Shown here one piece after another: positions 2,321-25,133 of a stretch of 33,477 bases of DNA. The notes below the pieces were generated by a model. That model saw only the letters and a list, made by a program, of their open reading frames with translations. It was not told where the DNA came from and made no database searches. Position 1 is the stretch's first letter. The number at the start of each line of letters is the position of its first letter. Location: positions 1 through 33,477 of the IMG/VR virus record IMGVR_UViG_3300029193_000102; one strand, given 5' to 3'. The stretch is from a virus (taxonomy: Duplodnaviria; Heunggongvirae; Uroviricota; Caudoviricetes). The position numbers and the translations under genes are program-made.

Positions 2321-4762
2321 TTAAAAATCAGCCTGACTCGGGATCAGTTTTTGCCAGATAGCTGAAACGTATTTTGCCTGGTAACGAGCGTCATCAAGTG
2401 CATTATGGCGCTCACCTTCGAATGGAATAGCCGTTCTGGCATCGAAGTCTATGGCTTTCCCCAGCTCAACGATTGTGCGTACATCGCGATCGTTGTAGTA
2501 ACGCCACGGGCAGGGGATCCCCTGCCGTTCGTATGAACGGCGCAAAATCGTGTTGTCGAAGTTGGCTCCATTTCCCCAGACCTGAACAAAAAATTCACCG
2601 GAGTTTTCGTCGATAAATTCCCGCAATTGTAACAGTGCATCATCTAACGGGATTTCATCGGTCATAATGGCAGATTGCGCTTCGCGTGATTGCTTAAGCC
2701 ACCATTTAATGGTGTCCCGATCAATGACTCCGCCAGCAGTTTCCAGATCGATAGTCTTACTAAATTCCGGTCCCATATCTCCGGTTTGCGGATCGAAAAA
2801 TATTGCACCTATTGAGATGATCGGGGCATCAGGATTTTTTCCCATGGTTTCAAGGTCGATCATTAGATGGTCACACGTCCTGCTGGTGGATGTGATTTCG
2901 TGATGACCGTTCACCTTAATTGAGTGATCTGCCGTCTCGCCAGTTTTATTATCGCTGGCGTGATGCTGATTGCCGCCAGGGTTCTCCTTGTGTGGATGTT
3001 CAGCGCCTTCCATTTCCTCCGGATCATTTTCCTGAACTTCAACCTGATTCTCTTCATCGAATGTTTCCTGGTATGTTGCGTCGCCCATCACCGCGCCACA
3101 ATCAGGGCAGTTGCCGCCACCGCTCTGACCGCAGGCGGTGCAGACTTTTTCCGGTTCCTGTTGCGCTACTGGTTCGGATTGTTTCGTTTCTGGCTCGTTT
3201 TGTAACGCATTTGGGCTGTTTTGTTCCGCTTTTTGGTCGTTCCGTTCCGATTCATGCTGGTTCTGGTTCACAGAATCGCGAGTCTGGATCCCCTTGACCC
3301 ATTTCGGATCATTAGGGTCGCTAATCCCCTCAACAAATTCACCACGCGATACAGCAAGTAACTTATCGGCGTCAGGCTGGCTGATATTGGCTGCCTGCAT
3401 AATTTTGTTTACTTCGTCAGCGGTGACTTTTACTTGGTTAGCGGAACTCACCTGCGACTGAGCATCCAGCGACTGCGCGTTTTGGCCATGTTCAGTTGTA
3501 TCCGGTTCCATTGTTTCAGTTGTTGCCTGTTCACCTGCCATTGCGTCAGATGGTTGTGGTTTTTCTTCTTCTGTTTCACGCTCAGTAACCACCTCGCGGT
3601 TAATTTCTTCCAGGATATCTTTTTCCGGCGTATGCCGGGCAGCTGTGAGAGTTTCCTTGCTGGGGTTCTCGTGATCAGTTTCCGTCAAATAGGCGTTGAT
3701 ATACCCCTGAAGGCGTCCCGGGTAGTGATAAAATTCAGGGTGTGCGCTTCGGATAAGTGCAAAAATAGCGGCGCGGGAATAGTCCAGAATACCCGGGGTT
3801 GCACGAAGTGCTGCGGACCATTCTTTGAACGGACTTTCTTTGTTCAGGACTACTTCTTTTGCGCGACGATAAACGCTGCCCGGAATTTCATAAATATTAA
3901 AATCCATCGGAAGTGTGGATGCTGCAATCTCCACATCCAGTGTGTCGAGGGTGTGTACTAAATTCGGATTGCGATCGGTTTTGTTCCCACCGCCAGCATT
4001 AGCACCGAAAGCCGTGCGGGTGATGCGTGAAACACGATTTCCTTTCATCCACTCTTTTGTCAGCAGACCCCGATCAGTGTAGTCAGCGTCCAGGTATGCT
4101 TCGAAAAAAGCAGTTATTAGTCCCAGGTCTGAATTACCAGGATTAGGGAAAACTTTGTCAGTGTCACGAACCAGTTTGTGGAGGTCGCGAATCTCCAGCG
4201 AGTCGAGCAGACTGGTTTTATGCGAAATAGCCAGGGCAGTAACAGCCGGTAGTTCTTCAGCCCGTGCAATGTGTAATGCCTGGAGTTCGTCGCGTGAAAC
4301 GTGCGTTACTGGTTTTTCGCTGCCGTGTTGAGCAAGCCAACGAATGGGCAGTTCCTGACCGGAGACAGGCAGAAGCATGCTCTCCTCAATCTCAGTCATG
4401 TCTTCGCCGTTGATGTTGGTATTGTCAGTGCTGGCTGGTTTGTCCCGAACAGAGGGGGAAGGGCCGATAAATGTCATTGTGATGCCATCTTTCCCGCCTT
4501 TTTCATAGCGGTTGCAGAATTCAGTATCAAACACGCCTTCTGGCGGAAGGTCGTCAACAACGGGCAAATTGACGCGGACGGGTTTTTTAAAGTCGTCTTC
4601 ATCATAATCGTTGTCATCCATTGCGGTAATGCAGCGGGAGATTGCAACAGATAATTTTTTTGCTGTAGTCCAGTAAAAACCACCTTTAATTCCTAGGCGT
4701 TTTCTTACTTTGTCATTTTTTGCTTCGCAATATAGTGCAAATTCTTCTTTATCAGTGCTCAT
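2321..4762 (-). CDS. Large exonuclease-like protein: C-terminal DEDDh-type 3'-5' exonuclease domain, central Cys4 zinc ribbon, acidic linker, uncharacterised N-terminal half (possibly the intact form of Qin YdfE)
   Basis: 813 aa; C-terminal motifs [10 protein letters not shown] (Exo I-like) and [13 protein letters not shown] (Exo III H-x4-D-like); [16 protein letters not shown] zinc ribbon; Qin-like gene order int - ydfE - ydfD - dicB. Confidence 0.7.
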
Positions 4763-12225: not shown

Positions 12226-12394
12226 TTTTGGTTCAACTAAATACAACGTCAGTTTTGAAGCATGGCATGAACTGTTAATGGACTATGCAGAGTTACGTGG
12301 TGGCAGTGCTGCTGATGCTGAAGCATGGCGTGATGATTATGAAGCAGGAAAAACTCCGGTCGAAGCATATTGTGATGAGTGGGGCGATGAATGA
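12218..12394 (+). CDS. Hypothetical 58-aa protein (below the ORF-track size cut-off)
   Basis: ATG 12218 overlaps the upstream stop and its TGA overlaps the next ATG (12391); translated by hand as MADFGSTKYNVSFEAWHELLMDYAELRGG...CDEWGDE. Confidence 0.4.
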   Translation: MADFGSTKYNVSFEAWHELLMDYAELRGGSAADAEAWRDDYEAGKTPVEAYCDEWGDE

Positions 12395-12906
12395 GCGAGA
12401 TTAATTATCAGGAAGGGCATGAAACGGCAGGGCAGGCAAAACCAGTTGCATGGCGATATCGCTACGTGAAAAAAGACGTTACAGACTTTCAGGGGAAGCC
12501 GTGGGCTGGTGACTGGAAATATGTACCGACAAAAGAGGATTGTAACGACAGGCCGAACTATGAAATTCAGGCCTTATTCATCGGCCCGCCAGTCCCGGTG
12601 ACATCAGAAGGACTGGTTAAAGCCGTGCGCTTTTATGAACAGGTAAAGCGTGAGAATCCGCCAGTCGAAACAGGAGCATGGAAGGATGCTGTTGACTGGG
12701 TGCTCAGAGAGGCCTGCTGCGCTGCCATTCTGGGTAAAGCCGACAATCCACCAGCATCCGGCAATCAGGTTAGCGAATTAACAATGTGGGTTAAACGACT
12801 GGTCAGTCAACTGAAAAAAGCTCAGCCGGACTGCAAATTACCGGAGAAGGCGATGGATTACCTGAAACGAAATGGACTGATAAGCGTGGAGGATGTTTTA
12901 CGATGA
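12391..12906 (+). CDS. Hypothetical early protein, 171 aa
   Basis: ORF track; translationally coupled to the upstream small ORF. Confidence 0.55.
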   Translation: MSEINYQEGHETAGQAKPVAWRYRYVKKDVTDFQGKPWAGDWKYVPTKEDCNDRPNYEIQALFIGPPVPVTSEGLVKAVRFYEQVKRENPPVETGAWKDAVDWVLREACCAAILGKADNPPASGNQVSELTMWVKRLVSQLKKAQPDCKLPEKAMDYLKRNGLISVEDVLR

Positions 12907-13026
12907 ATATTTAGACTAAAGAGTTTGTAACGCTATGTAAGTGATTTTTTCTGGTTTAGATATTTATATGTCCGGCCAAATTGAGGTGTGTTTAAATGTT
13001 ATTGCTCATTGATTGTAGGGGGAATA

Positions 13027-13206
13027 ATGAAAAACGCATTGCAGTTTTTGTTTGTTGCGTTCTGGTTGTTCGCATCATGTATGCCCATCATCTTCACAGC
13101 AAGGTATATGGAAAAAATTGATGTTTTGATATTAATGTTTGGACATATAAATGCCCTTTTTTTAGGGGTGTTCATGGCGGTCATGTGCATTGAATACTGG
13201 CGGTAA
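13027..13206 (+). CDS. Small two-helix membrane protein (59 aa) in an AT-rich islet
   Basis: ATG 13027 with GGGGGA upstream; two hydrophobic stretches; surrounding DNA is conspicuously AT-rich. Confidence 0.4.
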   Translation: MKNALQFLFVAFWLFASCMPIIFTARYMEKIDVLILMFGHINALFLGVFMAVMCIEYWR

Positions 13207-13465
13207 ATACAGCGAACGCCATTGGTTTAGTTGGATATTTACTGTGCCGGACAAAAACGGTTTGCGGGGAAATCTTAGTTAAGTAGAATAACTGCGGGTG
13301 CTTGAGGCTATCTGTCTCAGGCATGAACACCAAAAGGCAGATAGAGAAAAGCCCCAGTTAACATTACGCGTCCGGCAAGACGCTTAACATTAATCTGAGG
13401 CTCAATCTATGAACGGCAAATCTAGGTTAGCCTCTTACGTGCCGAAAGGCAAGGAGAAGCAGGCT

Positions 13466-13621
13466 ATGAAGCAGCAAAAGGCGATGTTAGTCGCCCTGAT
13501 CGTCATCTGTATTACCGTCATTGTGACGGCACTGGTAACGAGGAAAGACCTCTGCGAGGTACGAATCCGAACCGGCCAGACGGAGGTCACTGTCTTCACA
13601 GCTTACGAACCTGAGGAGTAA
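13466..13621 (+). CDS. hok: Hok/Gef-family type I toxin (HokD/RelF-like)
   Basis: 51 aa MKQQKAMLVALIVICITVIVTALVTRKDLCEVRIRTGQTEVTVFTAYEPEE, near-identical to recalled HokD; AAGGAGAAG SD 7 nt upstream. Confidence 0.8.
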   Translation: MKQQKAMLVALIVICITVIVTALVTRKDLCEVRIRTGQTEVTVFTAYEPEE

Positions 13622-13691
13622 GAGACCAGGCGAGGGGGAAATCCCTCGCCACCTCTGATGAGTCAGGCATCCTCAACGCACCCGCACTTAA

Positions 13692-13717
13692 CCCGCTTCG
13701 GCGGGTTTTGTTTTTTC
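13692..13717 (+). terminator. Rho-independent terminator after hok
   Basis: CCCGC-TTCG-GCGGG followed by TTTTGTTTTTTC. Confidence 0.55.
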
Positions 13718-13788
13718 CTGGCATTCTGGTTTACAATTCGCACGTCAGCCTGAACACCTGACACCTGCTGCGCCAGCAGAGAAAACAG

Positions 13789-14061
13789 ATGGCGCACAAA
13801 ACCAAATTTCACAATTCTGATACCGACCTTGCCATCCGGCATGGGCGGCGTTCACACGCATTTAAAACCGACTGGTACCAACACCCACCATGTACTGAAG
13901 AACAGGCCGAATGGCTAATTCATAACTACCGCAGACGCGGATACGAGATTAAGAAAGCCCTCAGCCTCGATTATCGTCACTGGATAATCTATGTCAGGCT
14001 CCCTTATTCCGAACGCTCACCGCGCCCATCCCGCACATTCCAGCAACGCATCTGGAGGTAA
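13789..14061 (+). CDS. Hypothetical 90-aa protein upstream of DUF968
   Basis: ORF track; its stop (14059..14061) is 1 nt before the DUF968 GTG start. Confidence 0.4.
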   Translation: MAHKTKFHNSDTDLAIRHGRRSHAFKTDWYQHPPCTEEQAEWLIHNYRRRGYEIKKALSLDYRHWIIYVRLPYSERSPRPSRTFQQRIWR

Positions 14062-14062
14062 C

Positions 14063-15121
14063 GTGCGGATATTACTTCGACCTGTTCTGGTACCGGAACT
14101 CGGGCTGGTGATCCTTAGGCCGGGCCGTGAATCCATGCAAGTATTTCATAACCCTCGAGTGCTGGTGGAGCCTGAACCGAAAAGCATGCGCGGTCTGCCG
14201 TCCGGAGTCGTCCCTGCCGTTCGCCAGCCGCTGGCGGAGGATAAATCATTACTGCCATTTTTCAGCGATGAGCGTGTGATTCGTGCTGCTGGCGGCGCTG
14301 GCGCACTGTCTGACTGGCTCCTGCGTCATGTTAAATCCTGCCAGTGGCCTCATGGAGACTATCACCACAGTGAAACCGTCATACATCGTTACGGTACCGG
14401 CGCAATGGTGTTGTGCTGGCACTGCGACAACCAACTGCGCGACCAGACCTCCGAATCACTCGGGCAACTTGCTCACCAAAACCTGTCTGCATGGATGATT
14501 GACGTCATACGCCATGCAATGAATGGCTCGCAGGAACGGGAATTATCGCTGGCTGAATTATCCTGGTGGGCGGTCCGCAATCAGGTGGCGGACGCGCTAC
14601 CGGAAGCGGTATTACGTCGTTCGCTGGGGTTGCGTGCGGAAAAAATCCGCTCAATGTACCGTGAAAGCGACATCGTACCGGGAGAGCAGACCGCCACCAG
14701 CATACTGAAGCAGCGCACAAAAAATATTGCGCTACCACTTCACGCCCACCAGCAACAAATCCGGCCACAGGAAAAGACGGTGGTCAGCATTGCCGTTGAT
14801 CCGGAGTCACCGGCTCAGTATCTCCAGCGCCAGAAACCACAACGGGAAGAGATGCCTGTATACACGCGCTGGGTAAAAACGCAGAAATGCATGACGTGCG
14901 GTAATCAGGCAGATGATCCGCATCACATCATTGGTCATGGACTGGGAGGGATGGGAACAAAGGCTGACGATTTGTTTGTTATTCCGTTGTGCCGTAAATG
15001 CCATAACAAACTACATGCCGGAGTAAAAGATTTTGAAGAAAAACACGGCAGTCAGTTGTTGTTGCTGATTCGTTTTTTAATGCACGCGAGAAACTCGGGT
15101 GTTCTGAAGTGGAAAGCATAA
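14063..15121 (+). CDS. DUF968 protein (YdfU-like) with C-terminal Cys/His motif
   Basis: GTG 14063 with GGAGG 4 nt upstream; ~352 aa like recalled YdfU; C-terminal CMTCGN...HHIIGHG...CRKCHNKLH. Confidence 0.65.
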   Translation: MRILLRPVLVPELGLVILRPGRESMQVFHNPRVLVEPEPKSMRGLPSGVVPAVRQPLAEDKSLLPFFSDERVIRAAGGAGALSDWLLRHVKSCQWPHGDYHHSETVIHRYGTGAMVLCWHCDNQLRDQTSESLGQLAHQNLSAWMIDVIRHAMNGSQERELSLAELSWWAVRNQVADALPEAVLRRSLGLRAEKIRSMYRESDIVPGEQTATSILKQRTKNIALPLHAHQQQIRPQEKTVVSIAVDPESPAQYLQRQKPQREEMPVYTRWVKTQKCMTCGNQADDPHHIIGHGLGGMGTKADDLFVIPLCRKCHNKLHAGVKDFEEKHGSQLLLLIRFLMHARNSGVLKWKA

Positions 15122-15487
15122 ATGACCGAACGCATAGAATTTGTTTTGCCTTACCCGCCGACGGTGAACACTTACTGGCGACGCCGTGGCAGCACATATT
15201 TTATCTCGGAGGAGGGAAAGCGTTATCGCCGGGCTGTGGCGCTTATTGTTCGCCAGCAGCGGCTGAAATTAAGCCTGTCCGGAAGGCTGGCGATAAAGGT
15301 GATTGCAGAGCCACCGGATAAGCGTCGTCGCGACCTGGACAACATTCTGAAAGCACCGCTGGATGCGCTGACGCATGCGGGAGTGCTCATTGATGACGAG
15401 CAGTTTGATGAAATCAATATTGTACGTGGTCAGCCAGTATCTGGTGGACGGCTGGGTGTGAAGATTTACAAAATTGAGAGTGAGTGA
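15122..15487 (+). CDS. rusA: Holliday junction resolvase RusA
   Basis: 121 aa; matches recalled RusA motifs LPYPPTVNTYWRRRG and DKRRRDLDNILKAPLDALTHAGVLIDD. Confidence 0.85.
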   Translation: MTERIEFVLPYPPTVNTYWRRRGSTYFISEEGKRYRRAVALIVRQQRLKLSLSGRLAIKVIAEPPDKRRRDLDNILKAPLDALTHAGVLIDDEQFDEINIVRGQPVSGGRLGVKIYKIESE

Positions 15488-16050
15488 GCGTAAATATGAT
15501 ATATCCGGAAATTACAGGCAAAAGCGGCGAGCATTTGCGTCTAAAAACGCTGGAAGCAGTCTGGATCCAGGGGAAATTACGGATGTGGGGGCGGTGGTCG
15601 TATATTGGCGGCGGTAAGACGGGAAATATGTTCAACCAATTACTGACCTCTAAAAAGCTGACAAAAACGGCAATTAACGAGGCGCTCCGGAGGATGAAAA
15701 AAGCTGGTCTGGACAAACCTGAACTTGAGGCTTTTTTGCGGGATATGATCAACGGCAATCAAAAAAGCTGGCTGGCACATTGTACCGATTCAGAGGCGTT
15801 AATAATCGACAGGGTTATTGGTGAAGTCCTGGCAGGCTATCCCGGGCTGCTCAATGTCCTGAGTCAGCGTTATGTGGGGCGGGGGATGACTAAGCGCAAA
15901 ATGGCTGAACTGCTGAATGATGCACACCCGGAATGGAGTTTAAGAACCTGTGAAAGACGCATTGAGCATTGGCTAAAGGTGGCAGAATTTATTTTGTACA
16001 AACCAATGGTTATGGCTTTTGGTATAGAGAAAAAAGTTATTGCTTTTTGA
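15484..16050 (+). CDS. Putative late-gene antiterminator (Q-like), assigned mainly by position
   Basis: 188 aa; lies between rusA and a strong terminator that precedes the late genes; alternative start ATG 15496. Confidence 0.5.
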   Translation: MSVNMIYPEITGKSGEHLRLKTLEAVWIQGKLRMWGRWSYIGGGKTGNMFNQLLTSKKLTKTAINEALRRMKKAGLDKPELEAFLRDMINGNQKSWLAHCTDSEALIIDRVIGEVLAGYPGLLNVLSQRYVGRGMTKRKMAELLNDAHPEWSLRTCERRIEHWLKVAEFILYKPMVMAFGIEKKVIAF

Positions 16051-16127
16051 CGTAAAAACTGCTTCAATTCCGGTACGCTTCGCAAAGCTGTACCACGAGG
16101 CGAATAGCAGACATGGACATTTGAAAG

Positions 16128-16151
16128 AGCCCGCTTTTTGCGGGTTTTTTT
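16128..16151 (+). terminator. Rho-independent terminator downstream of the Q-like gene (tR'-like)
   Basis: CCCGC-TTTTT-GCGGG followed by TTTTTTT. Confidence 0.6.
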
Positions 16152-16274
16152 ATGCCTGAAAAACGGCACAGAACATTAAACGCGCTGGTGGTTGCGAATA
16201 CCGGTCTTTCAGCTTGCTGGCTTTTCCGACAAGAGTTATTGGTATGTTACGTTAACCAGAAAAGGGAAAAAGAC

Positions 16275-16472
16275 ATGCTAAAACAGCAGGATATGACCGA
16301 AACCGCCAGAGTGGTGTTTAATGAGTTAAGCGTCACCGAACCGGCGACAGTCGGGGAGATTGCACAGAATACTTACCTTTCACGCGAACGCTGCCAGTTA
16401 ATACTGACCCAGCTTGTTATGGCGGGTCTGGCAGACTATCAGTTTGGTTGTTACAGACACCTTCAGTCCTGA
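16275..16472 (+). CDS. Small winged-helix-like protein (65 aa)
   Basis: ATG 16275 with AAAGGGAAAAAG upstream; TVGEIAQNTYLSRERCQLILTQLVMAGLADY; stop codon sits inside a terminator hairpin. Confidence 0.4.
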   Translation: MLKQQDMTETARVVFNELSVTEPATVGEIAQNTYLSRERCQLILTQLVMAGLADYQFGCYRHLQS

Positions 16473-16486: not shown

Positions 16487-16804
16487 GTGGTAAATTGGCG
16501 GCTGGTGGGTGTGGTGGTTGTTGCTTTCCCGTTGCTGAAAAAGAAAACGCCAGACTGTTAGCCGGGTATCAGTTATCTGGAGAAATTTTTAAATACCTCA
16601 CAATTCAGGCGGTTGACTGTTGTCTGGTTTGCGGGGAGTTTGTTAAAAGAAACTGGCATGGTGAATCCCCCTGTGCGGAGGGGCAATCAGCAACTGGTGT
16701 TTTGTCACCGACCCTTATCCTTTCTGTGCGGGTTCAGGTGCTGATACTGAACTCACCGGGAGGCACCCGGCATCATGTGCATGATGATACAGATACGCGG
16801 CTTT

Positions 16805-16830
16805 AGCCCCTCTCCGGAGGGGCTTTCTTG
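16805..16830 (+). terminator. Rho-independent terminator (plus strand)
   Basis: AGCCCCTC-TCCG-GAGGGGCT followed by TTCTTG. Confidence 0.45.
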
Positions 16831-16835
16831 TGGGC

Positions 16836-16861
16836 AAAAAAAAGCCCGAGTGGGTTCGGGC
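16836..16861 (-). terminator. Rho-independent terminator (minus strand), convergent with the previous one
   Basis: A8 run then GCCCGA-GTGGGT-TCGGGC on the plus strand, i.e. hairpin plus U-tract on the minus strand. Confidence 0.4.
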
Positions 16862-17043
16862 AACAGCATGAGATATACATTTTTATAATCGAATGGATTT
16901 TAACCAGAATTCATAAGGCTGCGCAACTGCGCGGTCTTTTTCGAATTGCGGGCTGTCGTCTCTCTTCTGCCATTGTCCTGTAACTTCCGGACTTCAGCCT
17001 GCTCCTTATCTGACTCACAATATTATCCCGGCCGGGAGGATTC

Positions 17044-22536: not shown

Positions 22537-23013
22537 ATGGACGGCGAGCTGAAAAATATGAAGTTAAATATTAATCAACTGGCAGCCCTTTCAGGTCTGC
22601 ACCGGCAGACTGTTGCCGCCAGAATGGCGGATGTTCCTCTTGCACCAGGCAGTAATGAAAAGAAAAAACTGTATCTCCTGACGGATTTGATTATTTCGTT
22701 GCTGGAAAAACCACCGACTTCCGAAGATGAAGAGATGAACCCACATGATCGGAAGGCATGGTATCAGTCCGAGCGCGAGCGTCTTAAATTTCAGCATGAA
22801 ACTGTTCAGCTTGTGCCTGTCAGTGATGTCAGGCGGTCCTTTTCTGTCGTGGTGAAAGCGATAGTTCAGGTACTGGAAACCTGGCCTGACCGGCTGGAAA
22901 GGGACAGAGGTTGGACCGCATCACAACTGAATGAAGTACAGATTGTGGTTGATGAGATCCGCGACACACTGGAAAAGGCAGTCATTGACTGTTGTGATGA
23001 GGCCGATATGTGA
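22537..23013 (+). CDS. Terminase small subunit
   Basis: 158 aa; GGAGGGA SD; N-terminal HTH NINQLAALSGLHRQTVAARM; immediately upstream of the large terminase gene. Confidence 0.7.
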   Translation: MDGELKNMKLNINQLAALSGLHRQTVAARMADVPLAPGSNEKKKLYLLTDLIISLLEKPPTSEDEEMNPHDRKAWYQSERERLKFQHETVQLVPVSDVRRSFSVVVKAIVQVLETWPDRLERDRGWTASQLNEVQIVVDEIRDTLEKAVIDCCDEADM

Positions 23014-25133
23014 ATCAGGTGAACGAGAGCCATAGCCGCGCATCCGATATCTGGCGCGAAGTGGCCTCGCTGTTTCGCCCGCCCAGCCGGTTACCAGTAG
23101 CGGAAGCCATCAGGCGTTATATGCGGGTACCACGGGGAGCCAATACTTCCGGTCCGTGGGAGTCATCGCTGACGCCCTATATGATTGACCCCATTAATAC
23201 ATTATCAGCCCGTGAATATGACGCGGTGGTGTTTGTGGGACCTGCGCGAACCGGGAAAACCGAAGGGCTGATTGACGGCTGGATTGTGTACGGCATCATC
23301 TGTGATCCGGCGGATATGCTGGTGGTGCAAATGACCGAGACGAAGGCGCGGGAACACTCCAGAACGCGTCTTTCCAGAACGTTTCGTCACAGCCCGGAGG
23401 TCAGTAAGCGTCTCAGTCCTTCCCGTAATGACAACAACGTCCACGATAAAATGTTTCTTGACGGCTCCTTCCTGAAGATTGGCTGGCCGTCGATCACTGT
23501 ATTTTCTTCTTCGGATTACCGTCGTGTGGCGCTGACGGATTATGACCGTTTCCCTGAAAACGTGGACGGGGAAGGGGATGCCTTCACCCTGGCATCAAAG
23601 CGTACCACCACCTTTATGTCCTCGGGGATGACCCTGGTCGAGAGTTCGCCGGGGCGGGATATCACTGACACCAAATGGCGCTGTGGCGGCGCACATGAGG
23701 CACCGCCAACAACGGGGATCCTGTCACTGTATAACCGGGGAGACCGCCGCCGGTGGTACTGGCCGTGTCCGCACTGCGGGGAATATTTTCAGCCGGTGAT
23801 GGATAACATGACCGGATACCGGAATAACCCGGATTTTGTGGCTGCCGGTCAGGCTGCCCGTCTGATGTGTCCGCATTGTCGCGGGCTGATTGCCCCTGAG
23901 CAGAAACGCGAACTGAATAACAAAGGGATCTGGCTTCGTGAAGGTGAACGGGCGGTGGCGGACGGCAGTATCACCGGAACACCACGAAATTCCAGGATTG
24001 CGTCATTCTGGATGGAGGGGCCGGCTGCGGCGTTTCAGACCTGGGAACAACTGATTTTTAAACTGCTGGCGGCAGAAGAAGAGTATGAGCGAACCGGCAG
24101 TGAAGAGACCCTGAAAGCGGTGGTGAACACCGATATCGGACGCCCCTATCTGCCCCGTTCAGCCACGGAACAGCGTAAAAGTGAACTGCTTGAACAGCGT
24201 GCCGAGCCGTTTCCCCGGCGATCTGTGCCGGATGGTGTGCGTTTTATTGAGGCAACGGTTGACGTACAGGGCGGTAAAAATCGCCGTTTTGTTGTGCAGA
24301 TCACCGGATACGGAGAGCAGGGGGAACGCTGGATTGTTGATCGCTATAACATCCGGCATTCACTGCGCTGCAGTCCCAACGGTGAAAGTCTGCCGGTTGA
24401 TCCGGCGGCATATCCGGAGGACTGGGATTTGTTGCTGACGGATGTGTTCCATAAAACATGGCCGCTGGCTTCTGATCCGGATGTGCGCATGCGTCTGATG
24501 GCCATGGCGGTGGATACGGGAGGGGAAGCCGGGGTGACAGATAACGCCTATCGTTTCTGGCGTCGTTGCCGGAGTGACGGACTGGGCAACAGGGTGTTTC
24601 TGTTCAAGGGGGATGGACTTCGCCGTGACAGGCTGATTAACCGTACCTTCCCGGATAATACCGGCAGAAGTGCCCGCCGTGCCAGAGCCAGTGGCGATGT
24701 CGCGCTGTGGCTGGTTCAGACGGATGCGTTTAAGGACCGTGTAAATAATGCCCTGTGGCGTGACACACCAGGGCCGAACTATATCCACTTTCCCGACTGG
24801 CTGGGGCGATGGTTTTACGATGAGCTGACCTATGAAGAGCGCGGCAGTGACGGAAAATGGCGAAAACCGGGCAGGGGAGCTAACGAGGCGTTTGACCTGC
24901 TGGTTTATGCGGATGCGCTTGCCGTTCTGCATGGTTACGAAAAGATCCGCTGGCCCTCCGCACCGGACTGGGCACAGCGGGAAACGTGGCTCGTCTTCCC
25001 GCAGGAGCGTTCTGGTGAAACGGTATCCCCGGAACTGACGGCCGGGGCAGAAAAACGCCGTCGCCGGAAGAAAAAACTACGGACGGAGCGTGCGGAAGAT
25101 AATCCATGGATAACATCAGGAGGCTGGTTGTGA
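23010..25133 (+). CDS. A: Terminase large subunit (lambda gpA family)
   Basis: 707 aa; ATPase motif VGPARTGKTE, CPHCGE zinc motif and nuclease-region DTGG as in lambda gpA; GTG start overlapping the small-subunit stop. Confidence 0.9.
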   Translation: MNQVNESHSRASDIWREVASLFRPPSRLPVAEAIRRYMRVPRGANTSGPWESSLTPYMIDPINTLSAREYDAVVFVGPARTGKTEGLIDGWIVYGIICDPADMLVVQMTETKAREHSRTRLSRTFRHSPEVSKRLSPSRNDNNVHDKMFLDGSFLKIGWPSITVFSSSDYRRVALTDYDRFPENVDGEGDAFTLASKRTTTFMSSGMTLVESSPGRDITDTKWRCGGAHEAPPTTGILSLYNRGDRRRWYWPCPHCGEYFQPVMDNMTGYRNNPDFVAAGQAARLMCPHCRGLIAPEQKRELNNKGIWLREGERAVADGSITGTPRNSRIASFWMEGPAAAFQTWEQLIFKLLAAEEEYERTGSEETLKAVVNTDIGRPYLPRSATEQRKSELLEQRAEPFPRRSVPDGVRFIEATVDVQGGKNRRFVVQITGYGEQGERWIVDRYNIRHSLRCSPNGESLPVDPAAYPEDWDLLLTDVFHKTWPLASDPDVRMRLMAMAVDTGGEAGVTDNAYRFWRRCRSDGLGNRVFLFKGDGLRRDRLINRTFPDNTGRSARRARASGDVALWLVQTDAFKDRVNNALWRDTPGPNYIHFPDWLGRWFYDELTYEERGSDGKWRKPGRGANEAFDLLVYADALAVLHGYEKIRWPSAPDWAQRETWLVFPQERSGETVSPELTAGAEKRRRRKKKLRTERAEDNPWITSGGWL

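What the first reader, a model, noticed from the sequence alone, without database searches (positions are those of the whole stretch)
13789..15121. DUF968 protein with C-terminal Cys/His cluster, coupled to an upstream 90-aa ORF
The stop of the 90-aa ORF (14059..14061) is 1 nt before the GTG start of the DUF968 gene, which has a GGAGG SD. The DUF968 C-terminus carries CMTCGN ... HHIIGHG ... CRKCHNKLH, an HNH-like or zinc-finger-like arrangement. The family is widespread in lambdoid prophages next to rusA but, to my knowledge, functionally unassigned.
Basis: partly seen in the sequence, partly recalled or inferred. Interest (0 to 1): 0.4.

Follow-up and report, generated by a model that had tools for sequence, protein, structure and literature searches.

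The report
Prophage YdfU-type HNH nuclease gene
This is the well-known but never-assayed prophage gene pair rem–ydfU: the larger protein ends in an HNH-type DNA-cutting domain, as already published, and sits with the RusA junction-cutting enzyme just before the phage's late-gene switch.

Summary
A 90-aa ORF (13789..14061) stops 1 nt before a GTG (14063) that has a GGAGG ribosome-binding site. The 352-aa product is a DUF968 protein carrying the quoted Cys/His cluster.

The pair is the Qin-prophage rem–ydfU pair. DUF968 was placed in the His-Me finger (HNH) superfamily, with YbcO, in 2017, and PHROGs already labels it "HNH endonuclease". The cluster is conserved: C276, C279, C310, H314 and H318 are present in 80/80 species-level homologues.

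Points beyond the literature I could search:
- The gene lies directly before antiterminator Q in 77/80 loci. RusA is within 3 kb in 61/80.
- Rem is adjacent in only 9/80 loci, and its lineage does not track the downstream nuclease type, so it is not an obligate partner.

No biochemistry exists for YdfU or Rem. The most likely role is a Ref/Rap-like endonuclease acting on recombination intermediates.

The parts
13690..13717 (+). Intrinsic terminator-like hairpin plus T-run at the 3' end of the upstream hok/sok module. It lies 72 nt before the rem ATG, with no sigma-70-like promoter between them.
   Evidence: 7-bp stem, 5 GC pairs, tail TTGTTTTTTC; sok RNA at 13296-13471; Hok/Gef ORF 13409-13621.
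13789..14061 (+). rem-like gene (90 aa). It is annotated 'hypothetical protein' in RefSeq and corresponds to rem of the Qin prophage.
   Evidence: phrog_1212 at E 1e-35; 491 homologue clusters, all enterobacterial.
13861..14058 (+). Conserved ~66-aa core of Rem (residues 25-90). In homologues from other genera the gene starts here with ATG-AAA. In this lineage the equivalent codon is TTT, and the ORF runs 24 codons further upstream.
   Evidence: The PHROG profile aligns to residues 25-90; alignment A2.
14054..14058 (+). GGAGG Shine-Dalgarno sequence for the DUF968 gene, embedded in the last two sense codons of rem (TGG AGG).
   Evidence: Read directly from the sequence.
14063..15121 (+). ydfU-type DUF968 gene: GTG start, 352 aa, TAA stop at 15119-15121.
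14063..14527 (+). N-terminal domain (residues 1-155). It has no Pfam family (phrog_11007 only) and is predicted with high confidence.
14339..14431 (+). Second, N-terminal Cys/His cluster (residues 93-123: C93-Q ... Y-H101-H ... beta-hairpin ... C118-W-H-C121-D-N). It has four invariant ligand-type positions in a predicted beta-beta-alpha element.
   Evidence: C93 and C118 invariant, position 101 C/H, position 121 H/C; strands 105-110 and 113-118 plus helix 119-125.
14540..14782 (+). Helical middle region (residues ~160-225, covered by the first half of the Pfam DUF968 model) followed by a low-confidence linker (residues 229-240).
14846..15106 (+). C-terminal His-Me finger (HNH, beta-beta-alpha-metal) nuclease domain, residues 262-348.
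14888..15016 (+). The Cys/His cluster of the finding (C276..H318). Predicted zinc ligands: C276, C279, C310, C313. Predicted catalytic and metal residues: H288, D303, H314, H318.
   Evidence: Residue roles are inferred from the alignment to HNH families and to Ref, not measured.
15122..15487 (+). rusA (Holliday-junction resolvase family). Its ATG abuts the DUF968 stop codon.
   Evidence: Pfam RusA E 4.5e-17; PHROG 34.
15484..16050 (+). Q-like late antiterminator (DUF1133 / Phage_antitermQ). Its GTG start overlaps the rusA stop by 4 nt (GTGA).

Best explanation
The region is the last part of the early-right ('nin') operon of a lambdoid prophage: hok/sok, then rem, ydfU (DUF968), rusA and Q. The four genes from rem onward are packed stop-to-start.

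The 352-aa DUF968 protein has two parts. Residues ~262-348 form a His-Me finger (HNH) nuclease domain. It is homologous to the stand-alone prophage protein YbcO and is structurally closest to the RecA-dependent endonuclease Ref of phage P1. One zinc is predicted to be held by C276, C279, C310 and C313. H288 is the predicted general base. D303, H314 and H318 sit at the catalytic-metal positions. Residues 1-155 form a separate, family-specific domain with its own invariant four-ligand Cys/His site. This domain is most simply read as a structural zinc site in a DNA- or partner-recognition module.

The most likely function is a metal-dependent DNA endonuclease that nicks or cuts recombination or replication intermediates (D-loops, branched DNA) of the replicating phage. 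It would work alongside RusA just before late gene expression, in the genomic slot that lambda fills with NinG/Rap.

Rem is a small conserved nin-region protein that is merely translationally coupled here. It is not a dedicated subunit of the nuclease.

Shown: gene structure, family membership, motif conservation, predicted fold, homology to YbcO and Ref, and synteny. Inferred: zinc binding, the catalytic roles of individual residues, nuclease activity, substrate, and any dependence on RecA.
For: Family and fold:
- Pfam DUF968 E 1e-63 plus HNHc_6; PHROG 96 'HNH endonuclease' E 1.7e-165.
- AF2 model pLDDT 86.2 with a beta-beta-alpha element at 285-319.
- hhalign: YbcO 89%, E 2.2e-6; Ref 76%, E 2.2e-5, sharing PC..C / HHI.G / PLCR.HH; NinG 39.5%, E 3e-4.

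Conservation:
- Catalytic and zinc positions are conserved across 32 and 80 homologues.
- The N-domain site C93 / 101 / C118 / 121 is invariant in ligand type in the same sets.
- The N-domain site is retained in three members that have lost the HNH histidines, which argues that the N-domain has an independent role.

Context:
- Q is directly downstream in 77/80 loci. RusA is within 3 kb in 61/80.
- The same slot after a Rem-like gene is occupied by YbcO or NinG in other phages.

Literature:
- DUF968 and DUF1364 are assigned to His-Me group 7 with a proposed recombination role (PMC5714182).
- Ref and phiNM1 Gp16 are RecA-dependent HNH nickases (PMC4330346, PMC12817073).

Rem:
- It is adjacent in only 9/80 DUF968 loci.
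- Its sequence lineage follows the upstream gene, not the nuclease type.
Against: - No nuclease, metal-binding or genetic data exist for YdfU or YbcO in the searchable literature.
- No sequence-level PDB hit, even with a family profile.
- Foldseek against the PDB gave nothing below E 0.6.
- The Pfam RecA_dep_nuc, YbcO and NinG models do not match the protein directly, so the links to the characterized enzymes are remote.
- Position 303 carries Asp where canonical HNH enzymes have Asn.
- The structure is a prediction made without metals or DNA.
- Synteny in mosaic lambdoid genomes is weak evidence for shared function.
Confidence: 0.6

Rival explanations
1. Host-directed effector. The nuclease mainly attacks or remodels the host chromosome, or acts on RecA filaments, to bias the lysis-lysogeny decision or inhibit host replication. 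Examples are phiNM1 Gp16 and P1 Ref. On this reading it does not process the phage's own recombination intermediates.
For: The closest characterized relatives by fold and profile are Ref and the HNHc_6 family. The HNHc_6 member Gp16 is a RecA-dependent nickase that inhibits host growth (PMC12817073). A strong Rho-dependent terminator upstream of ydfU is described as suppressing toxic prophage genes (PMC9160355).
Confidence: 0.15
2. Non-catalytic zinc-finger DNA-binding or regulatory protein. The HNH-like module is retained as a DNA-binding scaffold, for example as a regulator acting with Q, rather than as a nuclease.
For: Three of 32 representatives (P0202, P0209, P0232) lack H287/H288 and H314/H318 yet keep the rest of the protein. 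The gene is always next to the antiterminator Q. One family member is named a 'phage transcriptional regulator' in PMC5714182.
Against: H288, D303, H314 and H318 are retained in 28-32 of 32 representatives. H314 and H318 are retained in 80/80 genomic homologues. That pattern is expected for an active site, not only for a fold.
Confidence: 0.1
3. Packaging-associated HNH endonuclease that assists the terminase, as in HK97 gp74.
For: HNH proteins of similar size serve this role in many siphophages (background in PMC12817073).
Against: The terminase genes lie 7.4 kb downstream (22537-25133). The large subunit has its own GpA endonuclease domain. The gene is in the early operon before Q, not next to terS/terL, in all 80 loci.
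Confidence: 0.03
4. Rem is a dedicated partner of the nuclease (inhibitor, chaperone or specificity subunit), and the 1-nt stop-start coupling enforces their stoichiometry.
For: Rem-like genes sit immediately upstream of a nuclease gene in every context examined: DUF968, YbcO, NinG, RusA, or the RNase_T-type exonuclease of N15. Gaps are -4 to +8 nt.
Against: - Only 9/80 DUF968 loci have an adjacent Rem, and 58/80 have none within 3 kb.
- Rem proteins that precede YbcO and NinG can be 76-77% identical. Two that both precede YbcO are only 48% identical.
- The downstream nucleases belong to unrelated folds (HNH, RusA, DEDD exonuclease).
- One locus has a 139-aa gene between Rem and NinG.
Confidence: 0.1

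Closest known systems
YdfU (Qin prophage, E. coli K-12) / Pfam DUF968 (PF06147); His-Me finger group 7 of Jablonska et al. 2017 (PMC5714182)
   Same: Same family: Pfam score 214.9 bits, and 92-96% identity to hundreds of E. coli DUF968 entries. Same rem-ydfU gene pair. Same published classification as a His-Me finger with a proposed recombination role.
   Different: Nothing substantive; this is an allele of that gene. In this window it is followed by rusA and then a DUF1133-type Q.
YbcO (DLP12 prophage; Pfam PF07102/DUF1364; PDB 3g27)
   Different: YbcO is only ~96 aa and lacks the 260-residue N-terminal and middle regions. The Pfam YbcO model does not score this protein. YbcO is also biochemically uncharacterized.
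Phage P1 Ref (RecA-dependent HNH endonuclease; PDB 3plw; Pfam RecA_dep_nuc)
   Different: Ref has a 76-residue disordered basic N-terminus (PMC4330346), whereas this protein has a folded N-domain with its own Cys/His site. The Pfam RecA_dep_nuc model gives no hit. RecA dependence is untested here. The genomic context differs: P1 ref is a C1-controlled stand-alone gene.
Lambda NinG/Rap (branch-specific endonuclease; Pfam NinG)
   Same: It fills the same position in the nin region, after a Rem-like gene and before Q. It has a C-terminal His-Me finger. There is a weak profile relation (39.5%, E 3e-4).
   Different: A different Pfam family with a different N-terminal region. NinG phages often lack RusA, whereas DUF968 usually co-occurs with RusA.
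phiNM1 Gp16 / phiETA Orf20 type (Pfam HNHc_6)
   Same: The HNH part scores just above the HNHc_6 gathering threshold (29.1 vs 26.6 bits). Both are two-domain early phage proteins with a C-terminal CxxC...CxxH HNH.
   Different: HNHc_6 proteins have a NinB/Orf-like N-domain (PMC4118853, PMC12817073). The N-domain here shows no such similarity.

Membership tests
Pfam DUF968 (PF06147) | Score above the curated gathering threshold across the model | tested here: met
   214.9 bits vs 27.8; model positions 1-169 of 171.
His-Me finger / HNH superfamily | Beta-beta-alpha-metal fold | tested here: met
His-Me finger / HNH superfamily | Conserved His (general base) at the end of the first strand | tested here: met
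   H288 is present in 29/32 representatives. It aligns to the HH of Ref and to the Pfam HNH model.
His-Me finger / HNH superfamily | Metal-coordinating residues in the helix, and the Asn/Asp position before the second strand | tested here: met
   H314 and H318 are present in 28/32 and 80/80; D303 in 32/32. The residues have the correct types and positions, but metal binding itself was not measured.
His-Me finger / HNH superfamily | Metal-dependent nuclease activity | not testable with these tools
Zinc-finger HNH subclass (CxxC ... CxxC/H) | Four Cys/His ligands flanking the beta-beta-alpha core | tested here: met
   C276 32/32, C279 26/32, C310 27/32, position 313 C or H 26/32. All four are conserved in ligand type in 78-80 of 80 genomic homologues.
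YbcO / DUF1364 (PF07102) | Match to the Pfam model | tested here: not met
   No YbcO hit at E <= 10 for the C-terminal 94 residues. Homology is seen only by profile-profile comparison, so this is a sister family, not the same family.
P1 Ref family (RecA_dep_nuc, PF16786) | Match to the Pfam model | tested here: not met
P1 Ref family (RecA_dep_nuc, PF16786) | Cleavage only of RecA-bound DNA | not testable with these tools
   This is a biochemical property.
HNHc_6 (PF16784; Orf/NinB-HNH fusions) | NinB/Orf-like N-terminal domain joined to the HNH | tested here: not met
NinG/Rap (PF05766) | Match to the Pfam model | tested here: not met
   No Pfam hit; hhalign only 39.5%. It shares the genomic slot only.
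Translationally coupled gene pair | Stop and start within a few nucleotides, with the Shine-Dalgarno sequence inside the upstream ORF | tested here: met
   TAA at 14059-61, GTG at 14063, GGAGG at 14054-58. The same 1-nt gap occurs in 7 Escherichia/Shigella-type loci, and a 1-nt overlap in 2 Klebsiella loci. Actual coupling of translation was not measured.
Rem-like small protein (phrog_1212) | Match to the PHROG profile | tested here: met
   E 1e-35 over residues 25-90, the full profile 1-66. The family has no known function.

The most novel reading that the evidence does not exclude
YdfU-type DUF968 proteins are tandem His-Me modules. On this reading the uncharacterized N-terminal domain is a degenerate, non-catalytic duplicate of the YbcO-like HNH unit. 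It keeps the zinc site (C93, C/H101, C118, H/C121) but has lost the catalytic histidines, and it serves to recognise branched DNA or RecA filaments. The C-terminal Ref-like module does the cutting. The protein would then be an enterobacterial counterpart of RecA-dependent phage nickases, working with RusA.

Support is suggestive only:
- In-register profile alignment over 77 columns, P = 0.0077, against P = 0.7 for a reversed control.
- The same order of secondary-structure elements in both halves.
Probability: 0.25. Interest if true: 0.5.

Novelty: already known. Interest (0 to 1): 0.27.

Why it matters
A matching hok–rem–DUF968–rusA block covering at least 80% of the 2.3-kb query is present in 2562 of 5426 complete E. 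coli genomes. Both rem and ydfU are still on the list of uncharacterized K-12 genes.

The fold assignment itself adds nothing new. This analysis does sharpen what to test:
- The active-site and zinc residues to mutate.
- A prediction of two zinc sites per monomer.
- Ref, rather than generic HNH enzymes, as the nearest characterized model, which suggests RecA-dependent or D-loop substrates.
- Evidence that Rem need not be co-expressed as an obligate partner.

If YdfU proved to be a RecA-dependent nickase, it would extend that small enzyme class to the very common lambdoid and Stx-type prophages.

Tried and rejected
- Sequence searches of the PDB with the protein, the family profile and the N-domain profile found nothing.
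- NCBIfam and PADLOC gave no hit for either protein. There is therefore no match to the defence-system models in PADLOC.
- BLAST self-comparison of the two halves was uninformative.
- Apparent fusions of the N-domain to tail-fibre, portal or Q domains appear in the representative library. I rejected them as real architectures. The partners are unrelated structural genes from elsewhere in prophages, which fits prophage decay or assembly chimeras.
- The search for related loci failed with the divergent alignments A2 and A1. The IMG/VR scan with the Gifsy-2 Rem returned 80 near-identical loci, almost all with NinG downstream (73 of the 75 with a scorable ORF), so it added little diversity.
- A literature search for 'YbcO' alone returned superconductor papers. 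The refined search found no biochemistry.
- N-domain versus YbcO by hhalign was not significant (P = 0.51). That YbcO profile was very shallow (Neff 1.2).
- The packaging-HNH idea was rejected on gene position and the terminase type.
- A homing-endonuclease reading was rejected because the gene has a fixed position before Q in 80/80 loci.
Full report
**1. What is in the sequence**

The ORF at 13789..14061 (+) encodes 90 aa. Its TAA stop (14059-14061) is followed by one base and then GTG at 14063. GGAGG at 14054-14058 lies inside the last two sense codons.

The mechanical ORF list extends the downstream frame to an ATG at 13991 (376 aa). Four results favour the GTG:
- The PHROG 96 profile aligns from residue 25 of that long ORF.
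- 31 homologues at 25-96% identity all begin at the equivalent M-[RK]-x-L-L.
- RefSeq annotates the O111 orthologue 1 nt after the upstream stop.
- 43 of 80 homologous loci have GTG at that position.

The gene is therefore 14063..15121, encoding 352 aa. Its TAA abuts the ATG of rusA (15122..15487). The rusA stop overlaps by 4 nt the GTG of a DUF1133/Q-like antiterminator gene (15484..16050).

Upstream lies a hok/sok module: sok RNA at 13296-13471 and a Hok/Gef ORF at 13409-13621. It ends in an intrinsic terminator at 13690-13717. No sigma-70-like promoter precedes the 90-aa ORF, so these genes depend on read-through of the early operon.

The window as a whole is a lambdoid prophage next to tRNA-Ser. 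It has an integrase, a RecE-like exonuclease, O-like and DnaC-like replication genes, a NanS-type esterase and a lambda-type gpA terminase.

**2. Identity**

- The 2.3-kb block matches 4783 of 5426 complete E. coli genomes. In 2562 of them it matches at 80% coverage or more.
- Phage records annotate the two genes as rem and ydfU. This is the Qin-prophage pair.
- The large protein is Pfam DUF968 (E 1e-63) with a secondary hit to HNHc_6. It also matches PHROG 96, 'HNH endonuclease' (E 1.7e-165).
- The small protein matches only phrog_1212, of unknown function.
- NCBIfam and PADLOC have no model for either protein.

**3. Is the Cys/His cluster a family feature?**

Yes.
- In 32 sequences, mostly representatives of 50%-identity clusters: C276 32/32, C279 26/32, H287 28/32, H288 29/32, D303 32/32, P308 32/32, C310 27/32, position 313 C16/H10, H314 28/32, H318 28/32.
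- In 80 loci from different species (41-93% identity): C276, C279, C310, H314 and H318 are each 80/80, and position 313 is H60/C18.
- In that second set H287, H288 and D303 were part of the search pattern, so their invariance there carries no weight.
- Three representatives (P0202, P0209, P0232) have lost the HH pair and H314/H318. They are probably inactive.

**4. Fold and relatives**

- AlphaFold2 on the 32-sequence alignment gave pLDDT 86.2. The model has a beta-beta-alpha element at 285-319.
- Foldseek was not significant. Sequence searches of the PDB were empty.
- Profile-profile comparison:
  - C-terminal domain vs YbcO: 89%, E 2.2e-6, over the whole of YbcO.
  - Family vs P1 Ref: 76%, E 2.2e-5, sharing PC..C, HHI.G and PLCR.HH.
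  - C-terminal domain vs NinG: 39.5%, E 3e-4.
- The isolated C-terminal 94 residues also touch Pfam HNH (E 0.0038) and HNH_5.

So the C-terminus is a zinc-finger-type His-Me nuclease domain. It is a sister of YbcO and a remote relative of Ref.

**5. This is already in the literature**

- Curtis et al. 2014 noted a zinc-finger HNH motif in proteins then assigned to DUF968 (PMC4118853).
- Jablonska et al. 2017 placed DUF968 and DUF1364 (YdfU, YbcO, PDB 3g27) in His-Me finger group 7. They noted RusA and Q as neighbours and proposed a recombination or repair role (PMC5714182).
- No experimental work on YdfU, YbcO or Rem was found.
- Both ydfU and rem are still listed as uncharacterized in the 2024 K-12 y-ome survey (PMC11551758).
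- A strong Rho-dependent terminator lies upstream of K-12 ydfU (PMC9160355).

**6. The N-terminal domain**

Residues 1-155 are confidently predicted (pLDDT 88.5 for the domain alone). They have:
- no Pfam hit in any of 32 members;
- no PDB sequence hit;

The domain carries a second conserved cluster:
- C93 is 32/32 and 80/80.
- Position 101 is C17/H12 in the representatives and H 80/80 in the genomic set.
- C118 is 32/32 and 80/80.
- Position 121 is H24/C8 in the representatives and C71/H9 in the genomic set.
- Q94, W119 and D122 are nearly invariant.

These residues flank a predicted beta-hairpin plus helix (105-110, 113-118, 119-125). That is the same order of elements as in the C-terminal module. 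The cluster is kept even in the three members that lost the HNH histidines.

I tested whether the N-domain is a degenerate copy of the HNH unit:
- hhalign of residues 60-160 against 262-352 aligns 77 columns in the expected register (C118 to C310, C121 to C313, H102 to H287). P = 0.034 with 32 sequences. P = 0.0077 with about 60 sequences, against P = 0.7 for a reversed control.

This is suggestive, not established. If the reading is right, the copy lacks the catalytic histidines: S103 aligns to H288, D122 to H314 and R126 to H318.

Database 'fusions' of this domain to tail-fibre, portal or Q domains look like prophage-decay or assembly chimeras.

**7. Genomic context across the family**

In the 80 species-level loci, the gene directly downstream is:

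| Downstream gene | Loci |
|---|---|
| Antiterminator Q, Antiterm type | 64 |
| 201-aa type with no Pfam hit (counted here as a putative Q) | 12 |
| Antiterminator Q, Phage_antiter_Q type | 1 |
| RusA (Escherichia/Shigella only) | 3 |

RusA lies within 3 kb in 61 of 80 loci:

| Position of RusA | Loci |
|---|---|
| Directly upstream | 19 |
| Upstream with a Rha or KilA antirepressor gene between | 39 |
| Directly downstream | 3 |

So the family marker is 'last early gene before Q, usually together with RusA'. It is not 'upstream of rusA'.

The terminase genes lie 7.4 kb downstream, and the large subunit has its own nuclease domain. This argues against a packaging role.

**8. Rem**

- Homologues form 491 clusters, all enterobacterial, typically 66-69 aa. 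They correspond to residues 25-90 of the window ORF.
- In this lineage the ancestral ATG position is TTT, and the ORF begins 24 codons upstream, right after the hok terminator.
- In other phages and prophages a Rem-like gene sits immediately before NinG (Gifsy-2, Citrobacter, Salmonella, Kosakonia), before YbcO then RusA (mEp237, phiES15, E. coli, Cronobacter), or before an RNase_T/Lar exonuclease (N15). In one locus a 139-aa unknown gene lies between it and NinG.
- In 13 DUF968 loci the order is Rem, RusA, DUF968.

Rem therefore marks the start of a 'nuclease block'. Three results argue against a dedicated partnership:
- Only 9 of 80 DUF968 loci have Rem adjacent, and 58 have none within 3 kb.
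- Rem proteins preceding YbcO and NinG are up to 77% identical, while two that both precede YbcO are 48% identical. The Rem lineage follows the upstream DUF1367 gene.
- The downstream nucleases have unrelated folds.

The 1-nt stop-start junction is best read as ordinary operon packing with probable translational coupling.

**9. Mechanism, with what is shown and what is inferred**

Shown:
- gene structure, family membership and motif conservation;
- the predicted His-Me fold;
- homology to YbcO and Ref;
- synteny with RusA and Q.

Inferred:
- one structural zinc at C276/C279/C310/C313;
- H288 as general base;
- D303, H314 and H318 at the catalytic metal;
- a second zinc in the N-domain;
- endonuclease action on recombination or replication intermediates, in the slot that lambda fills with Rap;
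- possible RecA dependence, by analogy with Ref (PMC4330346, PMC3973344) and Gp16 (PMC12817073).

My estimates are about 0.9 for the fold, 0.7 for catalytic activity, 0.45 for a role on the phage's own recombination intermediates and 0.25 for RecA dependence.

**10. Verdict**

The gene is a common allele of a catalogued family, so the finding is ordinary.

The residual interest lies in three points:
- the uncharacterized N-terminal zinc domain, which may be a degenerate HNH duplicate;
- the Ref-like core, which gives a concrete and testable biochemical hypothesis for a very common y-gene;
- the clarified synteny rules for DUF968 and Rem.

Noticed in passing
window 13296-13717: A complete hok/sok-type module sits directly upstream of rem: sok RNA at 13296-13471, mok/hok ORF at 13409-13621, and terminator at 13690-13717. 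In this lineage the ancestral rem ATG position is TTT, and the ORF is extended by 24 codons to an ATG 72 nt after the hok terminator. This suggests the hok insertion reshaped the 5' end of rem.
   Followed up: partly
window 13970-13997 (-) and 13663-13842 (-): The only sigma-70-like site in 12900-16300 is on the minus strand inside rem (CTGACA-16-GATAAT, 10/12 match). A 59-aa antisense ORF overlapping the rem start is annotated as a hypothetical protein in RefSeq O111. This may indicate antisense transcription across the rem start and the hok 3' end.
   Followed up: no
window 16627-16891: Two Rfam sRNAs lie just downstream of the Q-like gene: STnc100 (16627-16835, +, 130.6 bits) and AsxR, the anti-stx2 sRNA (16839-16891, -, 63 bits, exactly at the gathering score). 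This is typical of the late-promoter region of EHEC-type lambdoid prophages.
   Followed up: no
loci L002, L004, L086-L101 (e.g. L086:1902-2707): In many enterobacterial prophages the Rem-like gene overlaps the stop of an upstream DUF1367 gene and co-varies with it. The downstream slot switches between YbcO and NinG. This suggests a recombination junction at the conserved Rem C-terminus (PRPSRxxQQRxWG).
   Followed up: partly
proteins P0202, P0209, P0232 (alignment A1): A DUF968 subgroup has lost the catalytic HH pair and H314/H318 but keeps the N-domain Cys/His site and the rest of the protein. These are likely nuclease-dead derivatives with a retained second function.
   Followed up: partly
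proteins P0127, P0143-P0146, P0175, P0178, P0230: Database proteins join the DUF968 N-domain in frame to tail-fibre, tail-tip J, portal or antiterminator Q segments. These are probably products of prophage deletions or assembly chimeras rather than real domain architectures.
   Followed up: partly
window 12391-12906 (+): A 171-aa ORF between the Ead/Ea22-like genes and the hok module has no Pfam or PADLOC hit.
   Followed up: no
window 2324-4762 (-): An 813-aa protein combines an exonuclease VIII (RecE-like) segment with a C-terminal Rv2179c-like 3'-5' exonuclease domain.
   Followed up: no
locus L003:2501-2713 (phage N15): N15 carries an unannotated Rem-like ORF (the old 'orf QD1') just upstream of gp41, which is an RNase_T-type exonuclease fused to a Lar-like domain.
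   Followed up: partly
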